64,000 nt of DNA from Pseudonocardiaceae bacterium (GCA_035606945.1 DATNDR010000086.1:9145-73144); one strand, 5' to 3'. Positions 5,323-14,703 are shown, counted from the stretch's first letter. Notes: a model not told the origin generated them from the sequence alone. Program-made: numbers and translations.

Positions 5323-6564
5323 GTGACTCTGTTCGACTGGGGAGTGGCAGCACTCGCCCTGGTTATCGGTGCTGCGCTCGCCGGTTTGCTGAACTGGGCG
5401 CGCAGCAGGCGGCAGTTCGGTACCGATGCCGACCGGGCCATCTACAACGCGCTGATCACCATGGCGCAGGCCTCACCGCCGCTGCGAGACGGGTTGCTGG
5501 CCTCCTCGGCGACGGCTGCGGCGCCGCACCTGCGAGCCCTGTTGAATTGCTCGGCTGTCGCCTTGACCAACGATGAAAGCGTGATGCTGGCCTGGGACGG
5601 GGAATCTCAGCATCACGCCGAATGGGTCGCCGAAGCCGCCCTGGAGGCCTTGAGTACCGGCCGCCAGCAGGTCCGCGACCAGCGCGAGATGGACTGCGGG
5701 CGGGCCGACTGCCCGATTCGGGCGGTGATCGTCTCCCCGCTGGAGGTCGACGGCGGGGTGGTCGGGACCTTCGGCGTGGTCAGCGAGCGACCTGCAGCGG
5801 CCGGCGTGATGCGGGCCACCGCCGAGGTCGCCCGTTACGTCTCCAGCCAGCTCGAACTGGCCGAGCTCGACGAGTCCCGGTCCCGGCTGGCCCACGCCGA
5901 GGTACGGGCGCTGCGCGCACAGATCTCACCGCACTTCATCTACAACGCGCTGACCACTATCTCGTCCTGCGTGCGCACCGACCCGGAGGAGGCCCGTGAG
6001 CTGCTCATGGAGTTCGCCGAGTTCACCCGGTACTCCTTCCGCGCCACCGGGGAGTTCACCACGCTGGCCGAGGAACTCAACAACATCGACCGGTACCTGA
6101 TCCTGGAGAAGGCCCGGTTCGGGGAACGCCTGCAGGTCAAACTGCAGATCGCCCCTGAGGTGCTCCCGGTGGTGCTGCCGTTCCTGGCGCTACAACCGCT
6201 GGTGGAGAACGCGGTCCGGCACGGGCTGGCGGGCAAACCCGGTGGCGGCACCGTCTCGGTGGTGGCCGAGGACGCCGGATCGGACTGCGTGATCAGCGTC
6301 AACGACGACGGCATCGGGATGGATCCGGAACGGTTACGCGACGAGATGACCGATTCCCACCTCACCGGCGCCCATGTCGGCCTGGGCAACGTGCACGACC
6401 GGCTGCGCGGGGCCTTCGGCGACGAGTGCGGGCTGGTCGTCGAAACCGCGCCGGGCTTGGGCACCAAGGTCAGCATGAGGGTGCCCAAGTTCAGCCGCGG
6501 AGTACGCGCCCTCGCGCCGCCGACGCCGAACCCGTCGCGAACTCAACCTCCAGTCAGTGCATAG
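5323..6564 (+). CDS. sensor histidine kinase, LytS/YehU-type (His_kinase + HATPase_c)
   Basis: GTG start and an N-terminal TM helix. It has the LytS-type phosphoacceptor box AQISPHFIYNALTTI and the ATPase boxes LQPLVENAVRHG, DDGIGMD and GLGNVHDRL. Confidence 0.85.
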   Translation: MTLFDWGVAALALVIGAALAGLLNWARSRRQFGTDADRAIYNALITMAQASPPLRDGLLASSATAAAPHLRALLNCSAVALTNDESVMLAWDGESQHHAEWVAEAALEALSTGRQQVRDQREMDCGRADCPIRAVIVSPLEVDGGVVGTFGVVSERPAAAGVMRATAEVARYVSSQLELAELDESRSRLAHAEVRALRAQISPHFIYNALTTISSCVRTDPEEARELLMEFAEFTRYSFRATGEFTTLAEELNNIDRYLILEKARFGERLQVKLQIAPEVLPVVLPFLALQPLVENAVRHGLAGKPGGGTVSVVAEDAGSDCVISVNDDGIGMDPERLRDEMTDSHLTGAHVGLGNVHDRLRGAFGDECGLVVETAPGLGTKVSMRVPKFSRGVRALAPPTPNPSRTQPPVSA

Positions 6565-6621
6565 CTTGGCTCTGGTGACCAGATGCGACGATCTGGCAGC
6601 ACATCTCCGTAGGCTGGCCAG

Positions 6622-7455
6622 ATGGACGTCAAGGAGCTGACCTCGCGGCTTCCGTTGCCGGGCAGCCAACGGGAGCGCGGCCCAGTGGTGGCGGTGGTCA
6701 AGCTGCACGGGCTGATCACGCCGACACCGGGCCCGCTGGTCCGTGGAGTGATCAACCTGGCCGGCCTCGATCCGGTGCTGACGCGGGCCTTCGGTTACGA
6801 ACGGTTGCGGGCGGTGGCATTGTCGATCAACTCGCCGGGTGGCACGCCGACCCAGTCCGCACTGGTGGCGGATCGGATCCGCGGTCTCGCCGACCAGAAG
6901 CGGGTACCGGTGCTGGCGTTTTGCGAGGACGTCGCGGCATCCGGTGGTTACTGGCTGGCGTGCGCCGCCGATGAGATCATTGCCCACCCGACCTCGGTGG
7001 TGGGGTCCATCGGGGTGGTCAGCCGGGGATTCGGGCTGCACGGCCTGCTGGAGCGCTTCGGGGTGGAGCGGCGGCTATATACCGCGGGAGCCAACAAGGC
7101 CCGGTTGGACCCATTCTTGCCCGAGCAAGAAGATGACGTGATCTGGCTGCACGGCATGCAGGCCGAGCTGCACGAGATGTTCCGCGAGTGGGTCTGCGCG
7201 CGCCGCGGCAACCTGCTGGCCACTGATCAACAGGACCTGTTCACCGGCGAGGTGTGGACCGGTCGCCGGGCCGTCGAGCTAGGCCTGGTCGATCGGCTGG
7301 GCACGATGCGCGGGGAGATCACCAAGCGCTATCCCGAGGCGGAGATCGTGACCGTAGAAGGACGCCGGCCGTTGCTGGCCCGTCTGGGTCTGGCTCCCGC
7401 TGCGTTGCTCGAAGCGCTCGAACACCGCGCCGCCTGGTCCCGCTTCGGCCTGTAG
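6622..7455 (+). CDS. S49 family peptidase (SppA/SohB-like)
   Basis: 277 aa with SINSPGGTPTQS and AASGGYWLACAADEI (nucleophile Ser context), plus SIGVV, typical of ClpP-fold S49 peptidases. Confidence 0.75.
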   Translation: MDVKELTSRLPLPGSQRERGPVVAVVKLHGLITPTPGPLVRGVINLAGLDPVLTRAFGYERLRAVALSINSPGGTPTQSALVADRIRGLADQKRVPVLAFCEDVAASGGYWLACAADEIIAHPTSVVGSIGVVSRGFGLHGLLERFGVERRLYTAGANKARLDPFLPEQEDDVIWLHGMQAELHEMFREWVCARRGNLLATDQQDLFTGEVWTGRRAVELGLVDRLGTMRGEITKRYPEAEIVTVEGRRPLLARLGLAPAALLEALEHRAAWSRFGL

Positions 7456-7787
7456 CCCCATTGCCGTGGACGATGCCAACAACGCACGATGCCGGCCTCA
7501 TCCCACACCCGCTGCGACCGCATCTGGCAGCTGAAGGGGCACAGCCCCACAGCTCCTTTCTGGGCCCTCAGGACGCGCTGGAAACGGTGCTGCGGGTGCA
7601 ACGGCGGCAGCTCGGCGTGGGACGCCTGCGCTTCGGCACGGAGCTGGCCGCGAACTCGGCGACAGTAAGGTCAACCAGGCGCACACGGATCGGCCGTCGA
7701 CAGCGATACTGGTCAGGTGCAGGGTTGACGGTCCAGGGATGATTGTTGGGGGATTTGCCGGGGCAGCGCGCGGCGGAGAGGCGGTCA

Positions 7788-8603
7788 ATGAGCGGCAACG
7801 ACGACAACCCCGGGCTTGTCGTGCTCGCCGTGGACGACGAGCCAGGCCCCATGGCCATGCTGTTGGAAGTGTTGGAAGGCGAGCCGCGCATCGGCACCAT
7901 CCTGACGGCCACCAACGCCACCGAGGCGCTGACGATCCTGCGGCCGGACAGTCGCAGCGCCAACGGCACCCCGCTACCGCGCGTCGATGTGGTGTTTCTG
8001 GACATCCGGATGCCTGGGCTGGACGGTCTGGAACTGGCCCGGGTACTCGCCACTATCCCCAACCCGCCGGCGGTGGTGTTCGCCACCGCCTACGACGAGA
8101 ACGCCCTCGACGCCTTCGAGATCGGCGCGGCCGACTACCTGATGAAGCCGGTGAGCCGGGAGCGCCTGGCCAACACGATGCGGCGGATCGTCGCCTCCCG
8201 GCGCGACGCGGCCGCTCCGGGACCCGAGCAGGCCGCTGAGGATGAGGTCATCCCGGTCGAACTCGCGGGTACCACCAAGCTGGTGCCGCGCTCGTCGGTG
8301 CGCTGGGTGGAGGCCCACGGGGACTACGCGCGGCTGCACACCGGTGACGGCGCCAGCCACCTGGTCCGTATCCCGCTGTCCCAGCTGGAGGATCGCTGGT
8401 CCGACGCCGGGTTCGTGCGCATTCACCGGTCCTTCCTGGTCGCCCTGCCGCTGGTCACCGAGTTGCGCATGTCGGCGTCGGGCTATGTCGTCCGAGTCGG
8501 CAACGGCGACGACGCCACTGAACTACCGGTCAGCCGTCGGCACACCCGCGAGCTCAAGGACCGGTTGGTGCGGGCAGCCAAACAGGGCTGGACGTCGCGA
8601 TGA
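7788..8603 (+). CDS. LytR/AlgR family response regulator (receiver + LytTR DNA-binding domain)
   Basis: ATG 7788 (MSGNDDNPGLVVLAVDDEP), phospho-acceptor context VVFLDIRMPGLDG. C-terminal LytTR motifs are VRWVEAHGDYARLHT and FVRIHRSFLV. Confidence 0.85.
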   Translation: MSGNDDNPGLVVLAVDDEPGPMAMLLEVLEGEPRIGTILTATNATEALTILRPDSRSANGTPLPRVDVVFLDIRMPGLDGLELARVLATIPNPPAVVFATAYDENALDAFEIGAADYLMKPVSRERLANTMRRIVASRRDAAAPGPEQAAEDEVIPVELAGTTKLVPRSSVRWVEAHGDYARLHTGDGASHLVRIPLSQLEDRWSDAGFVRIHRSFLVALPLVTELRMSASGYVVRVGNGDDATELPVSRRHTRELKDRLVRAAKQGWTSR

Positions 8604-8627
8604 GTGTCACGATTTGAGGCTTGCCGG

Positions 8628-9128
8628 ATGACCCTCGGGGGCATGAGCGACGATGCGACCGGCCAGGACAGTGACCCGTGGGCGGCGCTGGTCAAGGCGG
8701 CCGAGGACGCGGCAGCCCAGGAGCGGGCAGCGCAGGACAGCACTGTCTACCCGATCGCCGGTCGGACCAAGGCCGGCAAGCGGGAACGGATCGTGCTGGC
8801 CAAGCGGCGCAACAGCCGGCGGGTGGTGCGCACCCTTGCGGAGTTGGAGGACCAGACCAGCGTCGGTGAGGTCCTGGTCCGCCAGCTGGTCCGGGTACAG
8901 CTGATGCTGTCGGTCCGGCTGATGCTGCTGACCGTGGTCGTGCTCGGCGCCATCCCGGTCGCGTTCCTGTTGGTACCGTCGCTGGGCACAACCACCATCT
9001 TCGGCTTGCGCCTGCCATGGCTGCTGCTCGGCCTCGCGGTCTACCCGTTCTTCGTCGTGGTGGCCTGGTCTTACAACCGCGGCGCCGAGCGTAACGAGCA
9101 GGATTTCGCCGAGATGGTCGAGAACTGA
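8628..9128 (+). CDS. DUF485-like two-TM membrane protein (putative symporter accessory subunit)
   Basis: Hydrophilic N-terminus, then two TM helices and a YNRGAERNEQDF tail resembling YjcH/DUF485. It lies directly upstream of an SSS transporter. The start is ambiguous (GTG 8604, ATG 8628, ATG 8643). Confidence 0.45.
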   Translation: MTLGGMSDDATGQDSDPWAALVKAAEDAAAQERAAQDSTVYPIAGRTKAGKRERIVLAKRRNSRRVVRTLAELEDQTSVGEVLVRQLVRVQLMLSVRLMLLTVVVLGAIPVAFLLVPSLGTTTIFGLRLPWLLLGLAVYPFFVVVAWSYNRGAERNEQDFAEMVEN

Positions 9129-9136
9129 GCGTCAGA

Positions 9137-10939
9137 GTGCCCGAGCTGGCTGCATTCATCGTGACCATCGCTGCGATGGTCGTGGTTGCCGCGGTCACCA
9201 TGGTTGCCGGCCTTTACGGGGCCAAGGCACGAGCAACCTCGAATTTCCTGGAGGCCGCCCGGACACTGGGCCCGCGCTGGAACGCCGCGGCAATCTCCGG
9301 GCAGTACCTGTCCGCGGCGTCGTTCCTCGGGGTCGCCGGGCTGGTGCTCAAGGGTGGGGTCGACGCGCTGTGGTACCCGCTCGGGTTCACCGCGGGTTAT
9401 CTGGCGTTGCTGCTGTTCGTGGCAGCGCCGCTGCGCCGCTCCGGCGCCTACACGCTGCCCGACTTCGCCGAGGTGCGGTTGGGCTCAGAACGGCTGCGCC
9501 GGATCTGCACCGCCTTCGTGATCATCGTCGGCTGGCTCTACCTGGTGCCGCAGCTGCAAGGCGCCGGGCTCACCCTGCAGGAGGTGGCGAACCAGCCGAA
9601 ATGGGTCGGCGCGGCGGTGGTCATGGTGATCGTGACGTTCAACATCTACACGGGGTGGATGCGCTCGATCACCATCGTGCAGGCGTTCCAGTACTGGATC
9701 AAGCTGACCGCGCTGGCCATCCCGGTGTTCGTACTACTGATCCACTACGCCGGGGATCATCAAACGGCGCGCAGCTCGCTCGGTGCCCCGCAACCCGCCT
9801 TCCCGGTTGGCAGAGACATCAATCCGGATCGCAACATCGTGCTCAAAGTCACCGAGCCGACGCGGGTCACGGTAGACGGCAAACAAGACGACCAGCCCAC
9901 GCACGGGCCGGTCGTCTGGCCACCCGGCGAGCACAAGGTGGGCAAAGGCACCACCGTGCACTTCGACGCGGGCAGCCGGATACCGGTGACCAGCGATGCC
10001 GCCGCCGACTACAGCGCCTGGCTGCGACCGATGGGCGCCGGCAAACACCCGCTACTGGCCACCTACTCGCTCATCGTCGCGCTGTTGCTGGGCACCATGG
10101 GCCTGCCCCATATCCTGGGCCGCTACTACACCGATCCCGACGGGACGGCGGCACGCCGCACCACGCTCCTGGTACTGGCGCTGCTGGGGATCTTCTACCT
10201 GTTCCCGATCGTGTCCGGCTGGCTTGCTCGACTGTACGTTCCTCGACTGCTGGCCGAGGGCAACACCGACGCCGCGCTGCTGGACCTGCCCGGTGCGGCG
10301 CTGGGCATCCACACCGTGCCGGGGCTGCTGCTCGGCGGGTTGATCGCGGCCGGGGCGTTCGCCGCGTTCGTCTCCGCCGCCACCGGGCTGGTGCTCAGCG
10401 TTGCCGGGGTGCTGTCCACCGACGTACTACCCGGCCGGCTGCGCGGCTTCCGGGCGGCCACGATAGCTGCCTGGTCGGTCCCGCTGGCATTCATGCTCGC
10501 GGTCTCGTCGCTGGACCTGGCCCAAGGCGTCGGGCTGGCCTTCGCGGTGGCCGCCTCGTCGTTCTGCCCGCTGCTGGTGTTGGGCATCTGGTGGCGGGGG
10601 TTGACCGACGCCGGCGCGGCGGCCGGCATCCTGCTGGGCGGCGGCCTGGCGTTCGCCGCGGTGCTGCCGGCCGCAGCCGGCGTGCTGCCGCCCGACTGGC
10701 AGGCCCTGCTGGCGCAGCCCGCCGTGTTCACGGTGCCGCTGGCATTTCTGACCATGGTGGTGGTGAGCCGGCGAACCAGCGACCGGGTTCCGGCGGACGT
10801 CTCGCGTATCTTGCTGCGGCTGCACGCACCGGATCGGTTGGGATTGTCCGAGGACCGGGACTCTGGCCAGCTTCCCGGCCGGCCCGGGATGGCCGCGGCG
10901 GCGCTGCCCCGGATGCGCGGTGGTCGTCACCGCCGGTAG
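9137..10939 (+). CDS. solute:sodium symporter (SSS) family transporter
   Basis: 600 aa and multi-TM. SSS signature region is ISGQYLSAASFLGVAGLVL...GFTAGYLALLLFVAAPLRRSGAYTLPDF. It contains an ~100-aa hydrophilic insert between helices (HYAGDHQTARSS...AWLRPMGAGKH). Confidence 0.8.
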   Translation: MPELAAFIVTIAAMVVVAAVTMVAGLYGAKARATSNFLEAARTLGPRWNAAAISGQYLSAASFLGVAGLVLKGGVDALWYPLGFTAGYLALLLFVAAPLRRSGAYTLPDFAEVRLGSERLRRICTAFVIIVGWLYLVPQLQGAGLTLQEVANQPKWVGAAVVMVIVTFNIYTGWMRSITIVQAFQYWIKLTALAIPVFVLLIHYAGDHQTARSSLGAPQPAFPVGRDINPDRNIVLKVTEPTRVTVDGKQDDQPTHGPVVWPPGEHKVGKGTTVHFDAGSRIPVTSDAAADYSAWLRPMGAGKHPLLATYSLIVALLLGTMGLPHILGRYYTDPDGTAARRTTLLVLALLGIFYLFPIVSGWLARLYVPRLLAEGNTDAALLDLPGAALGIHTVPGLLLGGLIAAGAFAAFVSAATGLVLSVAGVLSTDVLPGRLRGFRAATIAAWSVPLAFMLAVSSLDLAQGVGLAFAVAASSFCPLLVLGIWWRGLTDAGAAAGILLGGGLAFAAVLPAAAGVLPPDWQALLAQPAVFTVPLAFLTMVVVSRRTSDRVPADVSRILLRLHAPDRLGLSEDRDSGQLPGRPGMAAAALPRMRGGRHRR

Positions 10940-11169
10940 ACGCAAACCACACTGGCCACATGCGTCGCGTCCGGGACGGGAGACCAACCCGTCGTCGATG
11001 ACAGTCAGTAACTGCTTTGACCGGTGTCACCTTCCGGTGCACGGTCGTCAACGGCGAGCTACTAGGGTGTCGGCGGTCTTGGCGACGCACCTTGCACCCG
11101 CTCGGTCGTCTTGTCCACCAGACACGCCGGTTAAGCCGGCGATTACGTCACCGCTGTGGAGGTGTCTGC

Positions 11170-11523
11170 GTGAGCACCACCGAGCCTGCCGGCGCTATCG
11201 GCACCGGGCGCCCAACAGATCCCTGGACCGCCGCCCATGCCAGCGCGGAGTTCGCCGGCCTGCGCATGCGGCTCCGTGGATTCGTCTTCCCGATGACCGC
11301 GTTCTTCCTGTCCTGGTATTTCCTGTATGTCCTGCTCGCGGCATTCGCGCCGCATTTCATGGCCATCAAGGTCGTCGGCAACATCAATATCGGGTTGATC
11401 TTCGGTCTGCTGCAGTTCGTCTCCACGTTCGCGATCACGACGATCTATGTGCGATTCGCCAACCGATACCTCGACCCGGTCAGCACCCGGATCCGCGAGC
11501 AGGTCGAAGGGGGTGCCTGGTGA
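11170..11523 (+). CDS. DUF485 (YjcH-like) membrane protein
   Basis: GTG 11170, two TM helices (FPMTAFFLSWYFLYVLLAAF and IGLIFGLLQFVSTFAITTIYVRFAN). Its stop overlaps the next gene's start (GTGA). This matches the E. coli yjcH-actP arrangement. Confidence 0.75.
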   Translation: MSTTEPAGAIGTGRPTDPWTAAHASAEFAGLRMRLRGFVFPMTAFFLSWYFLYVLLAAFAPHFMAIKVVGNINIGLIFGLLQFVSTFAITTIYVRFANRYLDPVSTRIREQVEGGAW

Positions 11524-14321
11524 CCACAGCGTTAGTAGCGCTAGCCCAGGACACCGTCGGCCGGCCGCTGCTCAACGGCGGCATCTTCCTGTTCTTCGTG
11601 CTGGTCACCCTGGTCATCGTGTTCCGCGCGGCACGCCGCACCCGTACCGCCGCGGACTACTACGCCGCGGGCCGGACGTTCACCGGCCCGCAGAACGGGA
11701 TCGCCATCTCCGGCGACTACTTGTCCGCGGCGTCGTTTCTGGGCATCGCCGGTGCGATCGCGGTATTCGGCTACGACGGTTTCCTCTACTCGATCGGCTT
11801 TCTGGTCGCCTGGCTGGTAGCCCTGCTGCTGGTCGCCGAGCTGCTGCGCAACACCGGCAAGTTCACCATGGGCGACGTGCTCAGCTACCGGATGCGCCGC
11901 AGCCCGGTTCGCGCGGCCGCAGCGGTATCGACCTTGGTGGTGTCGCTGTTCTACCTGCTGGCCCAGATGGCCGGCGCCGGTGGTCTGGTCGCGCTGCTGC
12001 TCGACGTCAAGAGCACTTCGGGCCAGGCGCTGGTGGTCGCGGTGGTCGGGCTGTTGATGATCTTCTATGTGCTGGTCGGGGGGATGCGCGGCACCACCTG
12101 GGTGCAGATCGCCAAGGCCGCGTTACTGATCATCGGTGCAGGCATGCTGACCGCCTGGGCGCTGGGCGCCTTCGGACTCAACCTGTCCGCCATGCTGGGC
12201 GAGGCGGCGGCCCGCTCGTCCCACGGGCAGGCCGTGCTCGCTCCGGGTCTGCAATACGGCAAGAGCACCACAACCAAGATTGACTTCGTGTCATTGGGGC
12301 TGGCCCTGGTGCTGGGCACTGCGGGCCTGCCGCACATCCTGATGCGCTTCTACACGGTGCCCTCTGCCAAAGAGGCCCGCCGTACGGTGGTCTGGGCGAT
12401 CTGGCTGATCGGCGTGTTCTACCTGTTCTCCCTGGTGATCGGCTACGCCGCGGCGGCCATGGTGGACGGCGGTCCAGCGCGGATCGCCGCGATGCCCGGC
12501 GGGGAGAACTCCGCGGCGCCACTGCTGGCGTATCAGCTCGGCGGTGAGATTTTCCTAGGCTTCATCTCAGCGGTGGCCTTCGCCACCATCCTCGCGGTGG
12601 TGGCCGGCCTGACGATCACTGCGTCGGCGTCGTTCGCGCACGACGTCTACGCCAACGTGATCAAGCGAGGCAACCTGGATGCGGACAGCGAGGTGCGGGT
12701 CGCCCGCATCACCGCATGCGCCATCGGCGCCCTGGCGGTGCTCGGTGGCATCGCTGCGCTGGGCCAGAACGTCGCCTTCCTGGTGGCACTGGCCTTCGCG
12801 GTGGCGGCCTCGGCGAACCTGCCGACTATCCTTTATTCGCTGTTCTGGAAGCGGTTCAACACCACCGGCGTGCTGTGGAGCATGTACGGCGGCTTGATCA
12901 GCTGCGTTTTGTTGATTTTCTTCTCGCCGGCCGTGTCGGGCACCCCGAAGTCGATGTTCCCCAATGTCGACTTCGCGATCTTCCCGCTGAAAAACCCGGC
13001 CCTGGTCTCGGTACCGTTGGCGTTCCTGCTCGGTTATGTCGCCACGGTGCTCAGTCCGAAAGACAGCGCGGACGAGGTCCGTTACGCCGAGATGGAGGTG
13101 CGCGCGCTGACCGGTGCCGGCGCCGAGCGGTCCACCTCCCAGCCAACTCCTCCCCCGGCTCCCCAGCCGCGCCTGCCACAACCCCGGCCGGTGCCCAAAC
13201 CGGTAGGCAGTGATTTCCCCGAACCGACTGTGATACCTGAGATACCGGCCCAGCGCGGGACGAACCGGCGACCGGTCGTCATCGCCGCCGGCGTGCTCAC
13301 CGGTGTGATCATTCTCGCGGTGTCCATCTCCGTGAACCGGGTACTGGCCACGGCACCATCCGAGGCCGCCAAGCCGGCCCAACCGCAACCCGCGGCGGAC
13401 ATCGGACCGGAGGTGGCGATACCTGCACTCGGGCCCACCGTCCAGGTCGGCAAGACTCCCGGCTTCGTCGCGATCTCTCCCAACGGCCGGCAGGCCTACG
13501 TCGCCAACCGCAACGCCCAGGTCGTCACCGTGGTGGACACCGCGGTCAACCAGGTGACCGCTACCATCCCGATCACGGCCGGCCCACCCCAGTTCCTCGC
13601 CTTCGCGCCGGACGGCCGCACGCTCTACGTCACCATCTACAACGACGCGCGAACCGTGCATGTGGTCGACGTGCTCGACACCGCGACGAACACGGTGGTC
13701 GGAACCATCCCGCAACAAGCCCGCCCGTACCTGCCGGCGGTCACCCGCGATGGCAAGCGCCTGTTCATCCCCAACCACGACATCGGTTCGGTGTCGGTGG
13801 TCTCCACCGACACCAACACGGTGATCGCCCAGGTGCCCGTCGCACCCAACCCGCACTCGGTCGCGTTCTCGCGGGACGGCAGCCGGGCTTACACGGCCAA
13901 CCACGAGTCCAACGTGGTGTCAGTGATCGACACCACCACCCTCGAGGTATTGGCGACCATCCCGGTCGGGAGAAGTCCGCACAGCATCGCGGTGCATCCC
14001 AACCTGCCGCTGGTCGCCATCGTCAACTACGACGGCGCCTCTGTGTCGATGATCGACGGCATCACGAACAGGGCGCTGGCGACCATCCCGGTCGGGACTC
14101 ACCCGCAAGACATCGCGTGGGCCCCGGACGGCCGGTTCGCCTACGTGGTCAACGAGGGCACCAACACGGTGTCGGTGATCGATGTCCGGACCAACCGGGT
14201 CACCGCGACCATTCCCACCGGAATCCAGCCGACCAGCATTGCGGTGCTGCCCAACGGTCGCCAGGCATATGTCAGCAACGTCACGGCCGGAACGCTCACC
14301 GTTCTGGACCTCACTGGCTGA
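11520..14321 (+). CDS. cation/acetate symporter ActP-like, fused in frame to Pro-rich linker, TM helix and seven-bladed YVTN beta-propeller
   Basis: GTG 11520 overlaps the DUF485 stop. Residues ~1-535 are ActP-like (ISGDYLSAASFLGIAGAIAVFGYDGFLYSIGF, GLPHILMRFYTV). Then come PTPPPAPQPRLPQPRPVPKP, the TM helix VVIAAGVLTGVIILAVSISV, and 7 repeats of ~42 aa ending ATIP/GTIP/AQVP. There is no stop codon anywhere in between. The supplied ORF start at 10920 is rejected. Confidence 0.75.
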   Translation: MTTALVALAQDTVGRPLLNGGIFLFFVLVTLVIVFRAARRTRTAADYYAAGRTFTGPQNGIAISGDYLSAASFLGIAGAIAVFGYDGFLYSIGFLVAWLVALLLVAELLRNTGKFTMGDVLSYRMRRSPVRAAAAVSTLVVSLFYLLAQMAGAGGLVALLLDVKSTSGQALVVAVVGLLMIFYVLVGGMRGTTWVQIAKAALLIIGAGMLTAWALGAFGLNLSAMLGEAAARSSHGQAVLAPGLQYGKSTTTKIDFVSLGLALVLGTAGLPHILMRFYTVPSAKEARRTVVWAIWLIGVFYLFSLVIGYAAAAMVDGGPARIAAMPGGENSAAPLLAYQLGGEIFLGFISAVAFATILAVVAGLTITASASFAHDVYANVIKRGNLDADSEVRVARITACAIGALAVLGGIAALGQNVAFLVALAFAVAASANLPTILYSLFWKRFNTTGVLWSMYGGLISCVLLIFFSPAVSGTPKSMFPNVDFAIFPLKNPALVSVPLAFLLGYVATVLSPKDSADEVRYAEMEVRALTGAGAERSTSQPTPPPAPQPRLPQPRPVPKPVGSDFPEPTVIPEIPAQRGTNRRPVVIAAGVLTGVIILAVSISVNRVLATAPSEAAKPAQPQPAADIGPEVAIPALGPTVQVGKTPGFVAISPNGRQAYVANRNAQVVTVVDTAVNQVTATIPITAGPPQFLAFAPDGRTLYVTIYNDARTVHVVDVLDTATNTVVGTIPQQARPYLPAVTRDGKRLFIPNHDIGSVSVVSTDTNTVIAQVPVAPNPHSVAFSRDGSRAYTANHESNVVSVIDTTTLEVLATIPVGRSPHSIAVHPNLPLVAIVNYDGASVSMIDGITNRALATIPVGTHPQDIAWAPDGRFAYVVNEGTNTVSVIDVRTNRVTATIPTGIQPTSIAVLPNGRQAYVSNVTAGTLTVLDLTG

Positions 14322-14364
14322 GCTACCCCACCATTCGCCATCAGCTGTGGCACGATTGGCGGCT

Positions 14365-14703
14365 ATGAGCCCCGCAGTGCCAGCTTGCCTGGTCGCCGAA
14401 CTGCCTGCGGACGCCGTACTGCTCGACGTCCGGGAGAACGACGAGTGGGCCGCCGGGCACGCCCCGGCGGCCGTGCACGTGCCGATGGGGCAGGTGACGC
14501 AGCGGCTCGATGAGATCGCCGCCGCGCTGCCCGATCGCCCGGTCCGGGTCGTGTGCCGCTCCGGAGCGCGCTCAGCCCGGGTCACTGCCTATCTCCGGCA
14601 GTCCGGCTGGGACGCGGTGAACGTCGACGGCGGCATGCGCGCGTGGGCTGCCGCCGGCCGCCCGATGGTCACCGACTCAAATGCCGCACCCCGCGTCATC
14701 TAG
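14365..14703 (+). CDS. rhodanese-like single-domain sulfurtransferase
   Basis: ATG 14365, LLDVRENDEWAAGHAP and the active-site loop CRSGARS. Confidence 0.8.
   Translation: MSPAVPACLVAELPADAVLLDVRENDEWAAGHAPAAVHVPMGQVTQRLDEIAAALPDRPVRVVCRSGARSARVTAYLRQSGWDAVNVDGGMRAWAAAGRPMVTDSNAAPRVI

What the first reader, a model, noticed from the sequence alone, without database searches (positions are those of the whole stretch)
13090..14321. ActP-type symporter fused in frame to a TM helix and a seven-bladed YVTN beta-propeller
From GTG 11520 the frame stays open for 933 codons. Residues ~1-535 form a complete ActP/SSS symporter, ending near YAEMEVRALTGAGAE. With no stop it continues into a Pro-rich linker (PTPPPAPQPRLPQPRPVPKP) and one hydrophobic helix (VVIAAGVLTGVIILAVSISV). 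Seven ~42-aa repeats follow, each with the pattern P..VA.SPDG..AYV.N......V.V.D......ATIP. A linker-TM-propeller layout is that of the extracytoplasmic half of receptor kinases such as M. tuberculosis PknD. It could therefore be a genuine transporter with a sensor/ligand-capture domain. Alternatively it is a deletion that joined actP to the 3' half of a receptor-type gene. I know of no characterised SSS transporter carrying a propeller.
Basis: partly seen in the sequence, partly recalled or inferred. Interest (0 to 1): 0.7.

Follow-up and report, generated by a model that had tools for sequence, protein, structure and literature searches.

The report
Carboxylate symporter with outside-facing beta-propeller
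A pyruvate/acetate-type uptake transporter of uncultured soil actinobacteria has, as a conserved single gene, an extra membrane helix and a seven-bladed propeller that should sit outside the cell; the fusion is real and undescribed, but what the propeller does is unknown.

Summary
GTG 11520 to TGA 14321 is one 933-codon ORF with five parts:
- a complete 13-helix MctC/ActP-type symporter (res 1-536);
- a disordered Pro-rich linker (537-585);
- a 14th helix (586-604);
- a short stalk (605-633);
- a seven-bladed YVTN propeller (634-933).

It is not an assembly artefact, a lost stop codon or an in-situ deletion. The fused ORF occurs in 33 protein clusters (75-100% identity) and in 7 species-level Pseudonocardiaceae MAGs. 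The propeller is under purifying selection (dN/dS 0.20), while the linker drifts (0.85) yet always stays in frame.

Unfused relatives (85-90% identical transporters) have the same gene order and no propeller gene within 8 kb. The difference is one discrete indel of about 1.15 kb. The cassette's closest paralogues (59-72% identical) follow Hsp70-like, kinase, caspase, TIR or ParA-like cytoplasmic domains.

Charge distribution puts the propeller outside the cell. Its function is inferred only. Most likely it is a tethered ligand- or envelope-binding module, with an invariant His-rich face, that localises or modulates the transporter.

The closest precedent is SiaF (an SSS transporter with an N-terminal NanM propeller). 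I rate this a new variant of a known kind, of moderate interest.

The parts
11017..11523 (+). DUF485 small membrane protein gene. It is the usual partner gene upstream of ActP/MctC, and its stop overlaps the symporter's start (GTGA).
   Evidence: Pfam PF04341, E 4.8e-33; sequence; same arrangement in L080 and L081.
11520..13127 (+). MctC/ActP-type solute:cation symporter core, res 1-536, with 13 hydrophobic helices. It ends at the conserved '..EMEVRALTGAGAE'.
   Evidence: NF058657 at 849 bits against a cutoff of 670; PF00474 at E 5.6e-88. Hydropathy shows 13 segments. AF2 pLDDT about 85. dN/dS 0.14.
13128..13274 (+). Cytoplasmic Pro-rich, disordered linker, res 537-585, ending in the basic 'RGTNRRP' next to the membrane. 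The first 20-25 residues or so correspond to the C-terminal tail seen in unfused relatives. That correspondence is shown at DNA level for other fused lineages (L004, L006); for the window itself DNA homology to unfused tails stops about 5 nt past GAGAE.
   Evidence: pLDDT below 50. dN/dS about 0.85. Length differs between orthologues but is always in frame. It holds 10 K+R. Tail homology and breakpoints.
13275..13331 (+). Extra 14th transmembrane helix, res 586-604 (VVIAAGVLTGVIILAVSIS). Predicted orientation is N-in, C-out.
   Evidence: Hydropathy peak 2.57. AF2 predicts a helix at 585-609. Positive-inside count. dN/dS 0.41.
13332..13418 (+). Extracytoplasmic Pro/Ala-rich stalk, res 605-633, ending in the motif 'GPEVA-IPALG'. 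This motif is conserved in the fused orthologues and the nearest paralogues, and more loosely ('SVAxPxxG') across the whole set of 117.
   Evidence: Alignments with P0122 and P0125 and with the orthologues. dN/dS 0.26.
13419..14321 (+). Seven-bladed YVTN beta-propeller, res 634-933, plus the stop codon. Blades are at about res 640-683, 684-732, 733-774, 775-816, 817-858, 859-900 and 901-933. The N-terminal strand closes blade 7.
   Evidence: TIGR02276 at E 5e-57. PDB 1L0Q: phmmer E 1.3e-57; Foldseek E 6e-21, 40% identity, rmsd 1.5 A. AF2 pLDDT 97, pTM 0.93. Blade alignment. dN/dS 0.20.
13773..13985 (+). Candidate ligand- or metal-binding face. It consists of non-periodic polar residues on the B-C and D-A loops of blades 3-5: N752-H753-D754, N777-P-H779, N794-H795-E-S797-N798 and S819-P-H821-S822.
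   Evidence: The four His are conserved in 83-87% of 117 paralogues. H753, H795 and H821 are invariant and H779 is 30 of 31 in the fused clusters. That they lie on one face is inferred from blade topology; no coordinates were available.
5323..8603 (+). Upstream context: a LytS-type histidine kinase (5323-6564), an S49 peptidase (6622-7455) and a LytTR response regulator (7743-8603). These are the likely regulators of the carboxylate-uptake genes.
   Evidence: Pfam PF06580 with PF02518, PF01343, and PF00072 with PF04397. The same order is seen in L080 and L081.
8604..10939 (+). A second pair of genes: a small membrane protein (8604-9128, no Pfam hit) and a 600-aa SSS paralogue (9137-10939, about 29% identical to the MctC part).
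14347..14703 (+). Rhodanese-domain gene, the conserved downstream neighbour. In unfused relatives it follows mctC directly.
   Evidence: PF00581, E 1.8e-16. Synteny. Candidate starts at 14347-14377.

Best explanation
**What it is (shown).** This is a genuine fusion protein maintained by selection. A complete MctC-type monocarboxylate symporter has 13 helices, with its N-terminus outside and its C-terminus inside. It continues through a disordered cytoplasmic tether of roughly 50-80 residues into a 14th helix. That helix carries a short stalk and a seven-bladed YVTN propeller to the outer face of the membrane.

**Origin (shown).** The cassette comprises the juxtamembrane basic residues, the TM helix, the stalk, the propeller and its own stop codon. 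It was copied from a family of receptor-type paralogues and placed at the 3' end of mctC, once, in a lineage of uncultured soil Pseudonocardiaceae. In those paralogues the same cassette follows Hsp70-like, Ser/Thr-kinase, caspase, TIR or ParA/MinD-like cytoplasmic domains. The cassette was probably lost again in several sublineages.

**How it most likely works (inferred).**
- The symporter still takes up pyruvate, acetate or propionate-type acids, under the neighbouring LytS/LytTR two-component system.
- The propeller is a binding module, not an enzyme of the pathway. Through an invariant His-rich face it would bind the same extracellular or envelope ligand as its kinase-, Hsp70- and caspase-linked paralogues.
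- It is joined only by flexible, fast-evolving tethers, and the transporter core shows no fusion-specific changes.
- Its most plausible effect is therefore to hold or cluster the transporter where that ligand is, or to modulate it loosely. Rigid allosteric gating seems less likely.
For: **The fusion is real**
- Single ORFs of 887-956 aa occur in 33 clusters at 75-100% identity, drawn from JGI, ENA, NCBI and Logan.
- Seven GTDB species representatives carry it.
- The identical 943-aa protein is found on 4 contigs read from independent assemblies.

**Selection**
- dN/dS is 0.14 for the transporter, 0.20 for the propeller and 0.26 for the stalk, against 0.85 for the linker.
- The linker has many indels, all in frame.
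- There is no conserved internal start codon with a Shine-Dalgarno motif, and no promoter- or terminator-like site at the junction.

**Topology**
- Hydropathy gives 13 + 1 hydrophobic segments.
- K+R counts are 32 on one side and 10 on the other, with the 513-585 segment on the positive side.
- A 13-TMD, N-out topology is reported for ActP, PutP and SiaT (PMC7918813, PMC8461474).

**Origin**
- Synteny is identical in fused and unfused loci, and no propeller gene lies within 8 kb of any unfused locus.
- The distance from GAGAE to the rhodanese LDVRE motif is 1288-1421 nt in fused loci and 106-196 nt in unfused ones.
- DNA breakpoints lie about 20 aa into the tail and about 46 nt past the propeller stop.
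- The fused propellers form a single clade, apart from one paralogue (P0123) that nests inside it, and that clade sits within the Hsp70/caspase-linked paralogues.
- Paralogue architectures are documented.

**Binding face**
- H753, H779, H795 and H821 and their neighbours are conserved in 83-87% of 117 paralogues and are invariant or nearly so (30-31 of 31) in the fused clade.

**Loose coupling**
- AF2 pLDDT is below 50 for res 527-627 and pTM is 0.58.
- No transporter column separates fused from nested unfused sequences.

**Transporter function and context**
- The NF058657 equivalog threshold is passed.
- A DUF485 partner gene and LytS/LytTR genes lie upstream.
Against: - No experiment bears on expression, topology, ligand or transport.
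- The outside location rests on the positive-inside rule and on the family's published topology, not on a dedicated predictor or a reporter fusion.
- The clustering of the His residues on one face is deduced from strand order, because model coordinates could not be inspected.
- The single-gain, several-losses scenario rests on unbootstrapped NJ trees. One paralogue from another locus (P0123) nests inside the fused propeller clade.
- Repeated loss suggests the propeller is dispensable, so a weak or conditional role is possible.
- Cleavage after TM14, which would release the propeller, cannot be excluded.
Confidence: 0.55

Rival explanations
1. Substrate-capture or substrate-processing domain. 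On this reading the propeller binds or converts an extracellular compound and hands the product to the symporter beneath it. One example would be a lactonase that opens a lactone to a hydroxy-acid. This is the role proposed for the NanM propeller fused to SiaF sialic-acid symporters.
For: - There is a direct precedent for an SSS transporter with an extracytoplasmic propeller that acts on its substrate (PMC8461474).
- Pfam's best propeller match is PF10282, 'Lactonase, 7-bladed beta-propeller' (E 3e-19).
- The conserved polar, His-rich face could be a catalytic or carboxylate-binding site.
- The short outer stalk (29 residues) would keep the propeller near the transporter's mouth.
Against: - The same face residues are conserved in paralogues attached to kinases, Hsp70-like ATPases, caspases and TIR domains. 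A role specific to a transport substrate therefore has nothing to explain it.
- Every match to a characterised family falls far below that family's cutoff. Examples are 6-phosphogluconolactonase at 34 bits against 370, and YncE at 89-94 against 400.
- The closest solved structure is a surface-layer propeller with no known catalysis.
- The transporter core shows no fusion-specific change.
Confidence: 0.15
2. Ligand-gated transporter. On this reading, binding of a ligand to the propeller is transmitted through TM14 packing against the core and switches transport on or off. It would be a receptor-regulated symporter, the mirror image of the CbrA/CrbS transceptors.
For: - The cassette is the input half of receptor-type proteins, including Ser/Thr kinases.
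- SSS family members with 14 helices exist, for example the SGLTs (PMC7918813).
- TM14 is more conserved than the linker: dN/dS 0.41 against 0.85, and 62% against 27% identity.
Against: - A tether of 49-80 residues, disordered and evolving almost neutrally, separates TM13 from TM14.
- AF2 gives TM14 low confidence and does not fix it against the core.
- No co-varying or fusion-specific positions appear in the core.
- The cassette was apparently lost repeatedly without other change.
Confidence: 0.15
3. Artefact or pseudo-fusion. This covers a misassembly, a sequencing error that removed a stop codon, or two separately translated proteins that only look fused.
For: - Most of the evidence comes from metagenome assemblies.
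- One fragment (P0121) even reads through into the next gene, which shows that such errors or events do occur.
- In-frame GTG codons exist in the linker of the window.
Against: - The fused ORF recurs in 33 diverged clusters and 7 species, and the transporter and propeller trees agree broadly on the grouping of the fused sequences.
- The linker has many indels and all are in frame.
- The propeller is under purifying selection in this frame.
- No conserved start codon with a Shine-Dalgarno motif is present.
- No split orthologue was seen among the best 120 hits listed for the C-terminal half.
Confidence: 0.03
4. A tolerated, nearly functionless add-on. On this reading the cassette landed at the 3' end of mctC by chance and persists because it is harmless. 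The propeller would fold outside the cell without affecting the transporter.
For: - The cassette was apparently lost several times within the clade.
- The mctC-rhodanese gap also accepts other insertions, such as a P450 and TetR insert in L021.
- The transporter shows no adaptation to the cassette.
Against: - Propeller dN/dS is 0.20, and the face residues are invariant or nearly so across lineages that differ by dS of about 0.5.
- The reading frame is kept through a linker that otherwise drifts freely.
Confidence: 0.1

Closest known systems
MctC of Corynebacterium glutamicum and ActP of E. coli (SSS family, TC 2.A.21; monocarboxylate/acetate symporters with a DUF485 partner gene)
   Same: - Res 13-539 pass the NCBIfam MctC equivalog threshold (849 bits against 670).
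- The core has 13 helices.
- A DUF485 gene lies upstream with a 4-nt overlap.
- The conserved C-terminal '..AEMEVRALTG..' is present.
   Different: The characterised proteins end shortly after helix 13, at about 550 aa. This one continues for 397 more residues: a linker, a 14th helix and an extracytoplasmic propeller. ActP-specific models are not reached (TIGR02711 at 449 bits against 1099).
SiaF clade of SSS sialic-acid transporters fused to the NanM mutarotase propeller, plus the NanM-NanZ MFS fusions (PMC8461474)
   Same: An SSS secondary transporter is covalently joined to an extracytoplasmic beta-propeller. In the MFS version an extra helix is added to get the topology right.
   Different: - In SiaF the propeller is N-terminal with a leader peptide. 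It is six-bladed (Kelch/NanM type) and is an enzyme of the same pathway.
- Here it is C-terminal behind an added 14th helix. It is seven-bladed (YVTN type), has no known activity, and is shared with signalling-type proteins.
- The phyla differ (Bacteroidota, Planctomycetota and Verrucomicrobiota against Actinomycetota), and so does the substrate class.
YVTN seven-bladed propeller of the Methanosarcina mazei surface-layer protein (PDB 1L0Q); TIGR02276 repeat family
   Same: It has the same repeat family and fold: phmmer E 1.3e-57; Foldseek 40% identity, rmsd 1.5 A over 275 columns; seven repeats of about 42 residues.
   Different: - 1L0Q is part of an archaeal S-layer protein with a PKD domain and is not membrane-tethered to a transporter.
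- The His-rich loop residues conserved here are non-periodic and are not part of the repeated YVTN motif.
- That the 1L0Q repeats lack them is my reading of its sequence from memory.
Receptor-type Ser/Thr kinases with an extracellular propeller
   Same: The layout is the same: Pro-rich linker, basic residues, single TM helix, stalk, then an outside propeller. The Pseudonocardiaceae kinases carry a homologous cassette, 47-63% identical.
   Different: The cytoplasmic partner here is a polytopic transporter rather than a kinase, so there is no obvious signalling output. PknD's propeller is the six-bladed NHL type (own knowledge), not YVTN.
MSMEG_5308/Rv1057, the seven-bladed propeller that binds and stabilises the MmpL3-TtfA transport complex (PMC6593404; NCBIfam NF048007)
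   Same: An actinobacterial seven-bladed propeller is physically associated with a membrane transporter. It acts as a scaffold or stabiliser rather than as an enzyme, and it localises to poles and septa.
   Different: That association is non-covalent and involves an RND-type lipid exporter. Sequence similarity is weak: 66-71 bits against a cutoff of 600.
SLC5-STAC sensor kinases CbrA and CrbS/MxtR (PMC7918813, PMC7096432)
   Same: An SSS domain with 13 helices is extended at its C-terminus by non-transport domains, linking transport with sensing. CrbS controls acetate uptake.
   Different: In those proteins the added domains (STAC, PAS, HisKA, HATPase) are cytoplasmic and give a signalling output. 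Here the added domain is extracytoplasmic and there is no STAC or kinase domain.

Membership tests
SSS family / MctC monocarboxylate symporter (NF058657, PF00474) | Sequence match above the curated equivalog threshold over the full transporter length | tested here: met
   NF058657 scores 849 bits against a cutoff of 670, covering res 13-539 and profile positions 2-525 of 527. PF00474 gives E 5.6e-88.
SSS family / MctC monocarboxylate symporter (NF058657, PF00474) | 13 transmembrane helices with the N-terminus outside and the C-terminus inside | tested here: met
   There are 13 hydrophobic segments in res 17-512. K+R counts are 32 against 10, consistent with N-out, C-in. The AF2 helices agree. 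The expected topology comes from PMC7918813 and PMC8461474. This is a prediction only.
SSS family / MctC monocarboxylate symporter (NF058657, PF00474) | DUF485 small membrane protein encoded immediately upstream | tested here: met
   PF04341 gives E 4.8e-33 for 11017-11523, with a 4-nt overlap.
SSS family / MctC monocarboxylate symporter (NF058657, PF00474) | Cation-coupled uptake of pyruvate, acetate or propionate | not testable with these tools
   This needs uptake assays. The function is inferred from the equivalog match and from the review PMC7918813.
E. coli-type ActP (TIGR02711 equivalog) | Score above the ActP equivalog cutoff | tested here: not met
   TIGR02711 scores 449 bits against 1099, and NF006903 scores 539 against 750. 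The protein is of the MctC type rather than strictly ActP.
YVTN seven-bladed beta-propeller (TIGR02276 repeats; fold of PDB 1L0Q) | Tandem repeats of about 42 residues that match the YVTN repeat model | tested here: met
   TIGR02276 scores 179-190 bits against a cutoff of 27.85. Seven units align with each other.
YVTN seven-bladed beta-propeller (TIGR02276 repeats; fold of PDB 1L0Q) | A closed seven-bladed fold with four strands per blade | tested here: met
   AF2 gives pLDDT 97 and pTM 0.93, with 27 regular strands plus one irregular strand. Foldseek against 1L0Q gives E 6e-21 and rmsd 1.5 A. This rests on a predicted model, not a solved structure.
Lactonase-type propellers (PF10282; 6-phosphogluconolactonase NF008258) | Match above the threshold of a characterised enzyme family, or a recognisable catalytic site | tested here: not met
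   The PF10282 domain hit (69.8 bits) is a generic fold match. NF008258 scores 34-39 bits against 370, and NF050136 scores 24-28 against 500.
YncE / PQQ-catabolism-associated propellers (NF052280, TIGR03866) | Score above the family cutoff | tested here: not met
   NF052280 scores 89-94 bits against 400, and TIGR03866 scores 155-160 against 287.
MmpL3/TtfA complex stabiliser (NF048007, MSMEG_5308/Rv1057) | Score above the equivalog cutoff | tested here: not met
   The score is 66-71 bits against 600. This family is a functional analogy only.
SiaF-type SSS-propeller fusions (PMC8461474) | An N-terminal NanM (six-bladed mutarotase) domain with a leader peptide, placed before a sialic-acid SSS transporter | tested here: not met
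   The propeller here is C-terminal, seven-bladed and of the YVTN type. The transporter is of the MctC type. The concept is shared, but this is not a member of that family.
SLC5-STAC sensor kinases (CbrA/CrbS) | STAC domain plus histidine-kinase domains C-terminal to the SSS domain | tested here: not met
   No STAC, HisKA or HATPase match was found in the 933-aa protein.
Receptor-type 'cytoplasmic domain - TM - YVTN propeller' paralogue family of Pseudonocardiaceae | A homologous cassette: basic juxtamembrane residues, one TM helix, a Pro/Ala stalk ending in 'GPEVAIPALG'-like residues, and a seven-bladed propeller with the conserved His-rich loops | tested here: met
   Identity is 59-72% to P0122-P0127, and the alignment runs through the TM helix and stalk. 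The residues are conserved. The fused propellers nest within this family.

The most novel reading that the evidence does not exclude
The TM-stalk-YVTN propeller is a portable extracellular receptor cassette of soil Pseudonocardiaceae, tuned to a single ligand through its invariant His-rich face. It normally drives kinases, Hsp70-like ATPases, caspases and TIR effectors. Here a nutrient symporter has captured it, making carboxylate uptake dependent on an outside cue, either through gating or through recruitment of the transporter to a particular envelope site. That would be a new class of receptor-coupled secondary transporter. It would also be a natural 'Rosetta stone' pointing to the ligand of a widespread orphan sensor family.
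Probability: 0.2. Interest if true: 0.7.

Novelty: new variant of a known kind. Interest (0 to 1): 0.5.

Why it matters
Secondary transporters with covalently attached extracytoplasmic domains are rare. The one described SSS case (SiaF-NanM) joins an enzyme of the same pathway to the N-terminus.

This protein shows a different route. An added 14th helix exports a C-terminal binding propeller that is otherwise used by receptor-type signalling and death-effector proteins.

If the propeller controls where or when the symporter works, it would be an unusual way of regulating nutrient uptake in filamentous soil actinobacteria.

The fusion also offers an experimental handle, namely transport as a read-out, for finding the ligand of a large orphan family of extracellular YVTN sensor domains.

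On the practical side, public annotation calls these proteins simply 'cation/acetate symporter ActP' and ignores 40% of the protein.

Tried and rejected
- **Stop-codon loss between neighbouring genes.** Rejected. tblastn with the C-terminal half finds no propeller within 8 kb of mctC in any of the 72 unfused loci, and synteny is otherwise identical.
- **In-situ deletion joining mctC to a receptor gene.** Rejected for the same reason. In addition, the indel carries its own stop codon and about 20-45 nt of 3' flank.
- **Internal translation start or promoter.** No conserved ATG/GTG/TTG with a Shine-Dalgarno-like motif lies upstream of TM14 in the five fused sequences examined (the script failed on the sixth). 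No promoter-like or terminator-like site lies at the junction. This is weak negative evidence only.
- **A paralogous propeller elsewhere in the 64-kb window.** None found.
- **Fusion-specific residues in the transporter core, which would indicate a docking interface.** None at thresholds of >=85% against <=35%.
- **Other SSS-propeller architectures in 1.84 billion representatives.** None among the best 150 hits. The long hits are giant multi-propeller proteins, and the 700-1200-aa hits checked are Hsp70-, kinase-, TIR- or ParA-linked. The fused family itself did not appear as a separate representative, presumably because of how the 50% clustering assigned it.
- **PADLOC defence models.** Nothing for the fusion. 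Only generic kinase or caspase domain matches for the paralogues.
- **P0123, which nests in the fused propeller clade.** I checked whether it is a split orthologue. It lies in another locus, next to UbiD and PIN genes, so it is a paralogue.
- **Literature.** Searches for a C-terminal propeller on an SSS transporter found only SiaF and the MmpL3 accessory propeller. One search failed on syntax.
- **3-D mapping of the conserved residues and domain-domain PAE.** Not possible, because model coordinates are not exposed.

Full report
**1. Observation**

The reading frame is open from 10920 to 14321 on the + strand. The likely start is GTG 11520. It overlaps the TGA of the upstream DUF485 gene (11017-11523) by four bases, and independent gene calls in homologous loci show the same overlap. 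The product is 933 residues long.

- Res 13-539 match the NCBIfam MctC equivalog NF058657 at 849 bits, above the cutoff of 670. Pfam SSF gives E 5.6e-88.
- After '..EMEVRALTGAGAE' (res 536, nt 13127) there is no stop codon.
- The repeats match the YVTN model TIGR02276 at E 1e-53 to 5e-57.

The only correction is that the in-frame codon begins at 13089, not 13090.

**2. The fusion is real**

A search of 5.8 billion proteins found single ORFs of 887-956 aa with both domains in 33 clusters at 75-100% identity. They come from JGI, ENA, NCBI and Logan assemblies, and where they are named they are Pseudonocardiales MAGs annotated only as 'cation/acetate symporter'.

A scan of one genome per GTDB species found the fusion in seven species representatives (L001-L007). 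All are uncultured Pseudonocardiaceae or Actinomycetota MAGs. The 72 other loci, which include cultured Actinophytocola, Saccharopolyspora, Pseudonocardia and Amycolatopsis, are unfused. One fused protein (P0014) occurs with identical sequence on four contigs read from independent assemblies, with the whole neighbourhood conserved.

Pairwise Nei-Gojobori estimates on the window plus six fused loci gave the following median dN/dS:

| Region | dN/dS |
|---|---|
| Transporter | 0.14 |
| Cytoplasmic linker | 0.85 |
| Helix 14 | 0.41 |
| Stalk | 0.26 |
| Propeller | 0.20 |

The linker therefore drifts almost neutrally. Its length also varies: the distance from GAGAE to 'GPEVAIPALG' is 88-109 residues. 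Yet every orthologue stays in frame. This is hard to explain unless read-through into the propeller is under selection. No conserved internal start codon with a Shine-Dalgarno-like motif was found, and no promoter- or terminator-like site lies at the junction.

**3. Origin**

Gene order is identical in fused and unfused genomes: small membrane protein, SSS paralogue, DUF485, mctC, rhodanese, DUF4328, (GDPD), SEC-C/DUF5926.

- No unfused locus encodes a propeller within 8 kb.
- From the GAGAE motif to the rhodanese LDVRE motif is 1288-1421 nt in fused loci and 106-196 nt in unfused ones.
- At DNA level an unfused locus (L015) aligns with a fused one (L006) up to about 20 codons after GAGAE. It aligns again from about 46 nt after the propeller's stop codon. 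This defines a single indel of about 1.15 kb that includes its own stop.
- The first part of the linker is thus the old C-terminal tail of MctC. Unfused tails such as '..RRPPLNTTPTGRLTR' (P0040) resemble '..SRPPLDTMPTGTAG..' of fused P0025.

The cassette's nearest relatives are 59-72% identical, and the homology runs through the basic residues, the TM helix and the 'GPEVAIPALG' stalk. They are C-terminal parts of proteins with other cytoplasmic N-domains:

- Hsp70-like nucleotide-binding domains (the most common);
- Ser/Thr kinases;
- caspases;
- MinD/ParA-like ATPases;
- Hsp70 plus TIR;
- kinase plus Hsp70.

In an NJ tree the fused propellers form one clade nested among the Hsp70- and caspase-linked ones. 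One paralogue from another locus (P0123) falls inside that clade. In the transporter tree the fused sequences share a clade with some unfused ones interleaved.

The simplest reading is one acquisition followed by several losses, but the trees are unbootstrapped. The same intergenic site holds a P450/TetR insert in L021, so it appears to tolerate insertions.

The idea that the extra part derives from the 3' half of a receptor-type gene is supported.

**4. Topology and structure**

Hydropathy analysis gives 13 segments in res 17-512 plus helix 14. Loops that follow odd-numbered helices, including the 513-585 linker, carry 32 K+R. The other side carries 10.

This fits the N-out, C-in topology of 13 helices reported for ActP, PutP and SiaT (PMC7918813; PMC8461474). 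It places the propeller outside the membrane.

- AlphaFold2 on the full length gives about 85 pLDDT for the transporter and 97-98 for the propeller. Res 527-627 score below 50, a helix is predicted at 585-609, and pTM is 0.58. The domain arrangement is thus undefined.
- The propeller modelled alone gives pLDDT 97 and pTM 0.93, with 27 regular strands plus one irregular strand, which makes seven blades.
- The closest solved structure is the YVTN propeller of the Methanosarcina mazei S-layer protein, 1L0Q. phmmer gives E 1.3e-57. Foldseek gives E 6e-21, 40% identity and rmsd 1.5 A.
- All matches to characterised propeller families are far below their cutoffs. This applies to YncE, the PQQ-associated propellers, hydrazine synthase beta, 6-phosphogluconolactonase and the MmpL3 stabiliser.

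**5. Clues to function**

*Conserved face.* Beyond the periodic structural motif, a set of polar residues is conserved in 83-87% of 117 paralogues. These are N752-H753-D754, N777-P-H779, N794-H795-E-S797-N798 and S819-P-H821-S822. In the 31 fused clusters H753, H795 and H821 are invariant, and H779 is present in 30 of 31. By strand order they lie on B-C and D-A loops of blades 3-5, which is one face of the propeller. It suggests a binding site shared by the whole paralogue family, not one specific to the transporter.

*No adaptation in the core.* No column of the transporter core distinguishes fused from nested unfused sequences. Taken with the floppy tethers, this argues against a tight docking or gating interface.

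*Genomic context.* The locus is a carboxylate-uptake unit. A LytS-type histidine kinase, an S49 peptidase and a LytTR regulator lie upstream and are conserved in L080 and L081.

*Best explanation.* I take the protein to be a working MctC-type symporter that carries a tethered extracytoplasmic binding module. Most probably the module anchors or clusters the transporter at the site of an envelope or extracellular ligand, or modulates it loosely.

- That the fusion is genuine and the propeller faces outward I hold at about 0.9.
- The specific functional reading I hold at about 0.35-0.4.
- The combined figure given for the best explanation is 0.55.

The rivals are a NanM-like substrate-capture or processing role, true ligand gating, a tolerated near-neutral add-on, and an artefact. 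Each is weighed in its own section.

**6. Comparison with known systems**

- The closest precedent is the SiaF clade, in which SSS sialic-acid transporters carry an N-terminal periplasmic NanM six-bladed propeller. Related NanM-MFS fusions gained an extra helix (PMC8461474). The present protein shares the concept. It differs in which end is fused, in the added helix, in propeller family, in substrate class and in phylum.
- It also resembles the receptor kinases with outside propellers. Homologous YVTN-kinases are in fact among its paralogues.
- The MSMEG_5308/Rv1057 propeller stabilises the MmpL3 complex non-covalently (PMC6593404). The resemblance is functional only.
- The SLC5-STAC sensor kinases extend an SSS domain with cytoplasmic signalling domains (PMC7918813).

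I found no description of a C-terminal helix-plus-YVTN extension on an SSS transporter. No other such architecture appeared among the best 150 hits in 1.84 billion representatives.

**7. Verdict**

This is a real, conserved and previously undescribed domain architecture, and a new variant of a known kind (secondary transporters with fused extracytoplasmic domains). Interest is moderate, at 0.5.

- In its favour: the anatomy and origin are clear, and the link to a promiscuous receptor cassette is intriguing.
- Against: the function is entirely inferred, and repeated loss suggests an accessory role.

Noticed in passing
P0121 (JGI contig of 3941 nt); corresponds to window 14319-14360: In one fragment the propeller ORF has no stop codon and reads straight into the downstream rhodanese ('..LTILELTG RQPSARWLGLAAMNYPVPAC..'). 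This is either a sequencing error or a rare triple fusion.
   Followed up: no
L021 9650-12450: In this unfused relative the same mctC-rhodanese gap holds a 3-kb insert on the opposite strand. It carries a cytochrome P450, a TetR regulator and a 190-aa ORF. The site seems to accept insertions.
   Followed up: partly
window 9137-10939 (res ~215-300 of the 600-aa SSS paralogue): The upstream SSS paralogue has an extra segment of about 70-90 residues in the loop after its sixth helix ('..PVGRDINPDRNIVLKVTEPTRVTVDGKQDD..'). The segment is absent from the homologues in L012 and L017.
   Followed up: no
window 5323-8603; L080 1-3200: An S49 (SppA-like) peptidase gene sits between the LytS-type histidine kinase and its LytTR response regulator. 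This placement is conserved in other genomes.
   Followed up: no
P0332, P0333, P0126, P0134, P0136, P0286 (paralogues, not in the window): The same TM-stalk-YVTN cassette follows Hsp70-like plus TIR, kinase plus Hsp70-like, caspase, and MinD/ParA-like domains. This looks like a family of receptor-type proteins with death- or immunity-style effectors and an extracellular propeller. The PADLOC models gave only generic kinase or caspase domain matches for them.
   Followed up: partly
P0241-P0257 and similar (representative library): Some giant proteins of 2000-5000 aa contain up to 15 matched YVTN propeller stretches, 32-43% identical to this propeller.
   Followed up: no
window 8604-9128: The small membrane protein upstream of the first SSS gene occupies the position of a DUF485 partner but gives no Pfam hit. 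It is conserved in all related loci.
   Followed up: no
L083 (P0123, JGI contig of 2549 nt): A 475-aa TM-propeller protein groups inside the MctC-fused propeller clade in the NJ tree, yet it lies next to UbiD and PIN genes rather than mctC. It could be close to the donor, or it could be a secondary copy of the cassette.
   Followed up: partly
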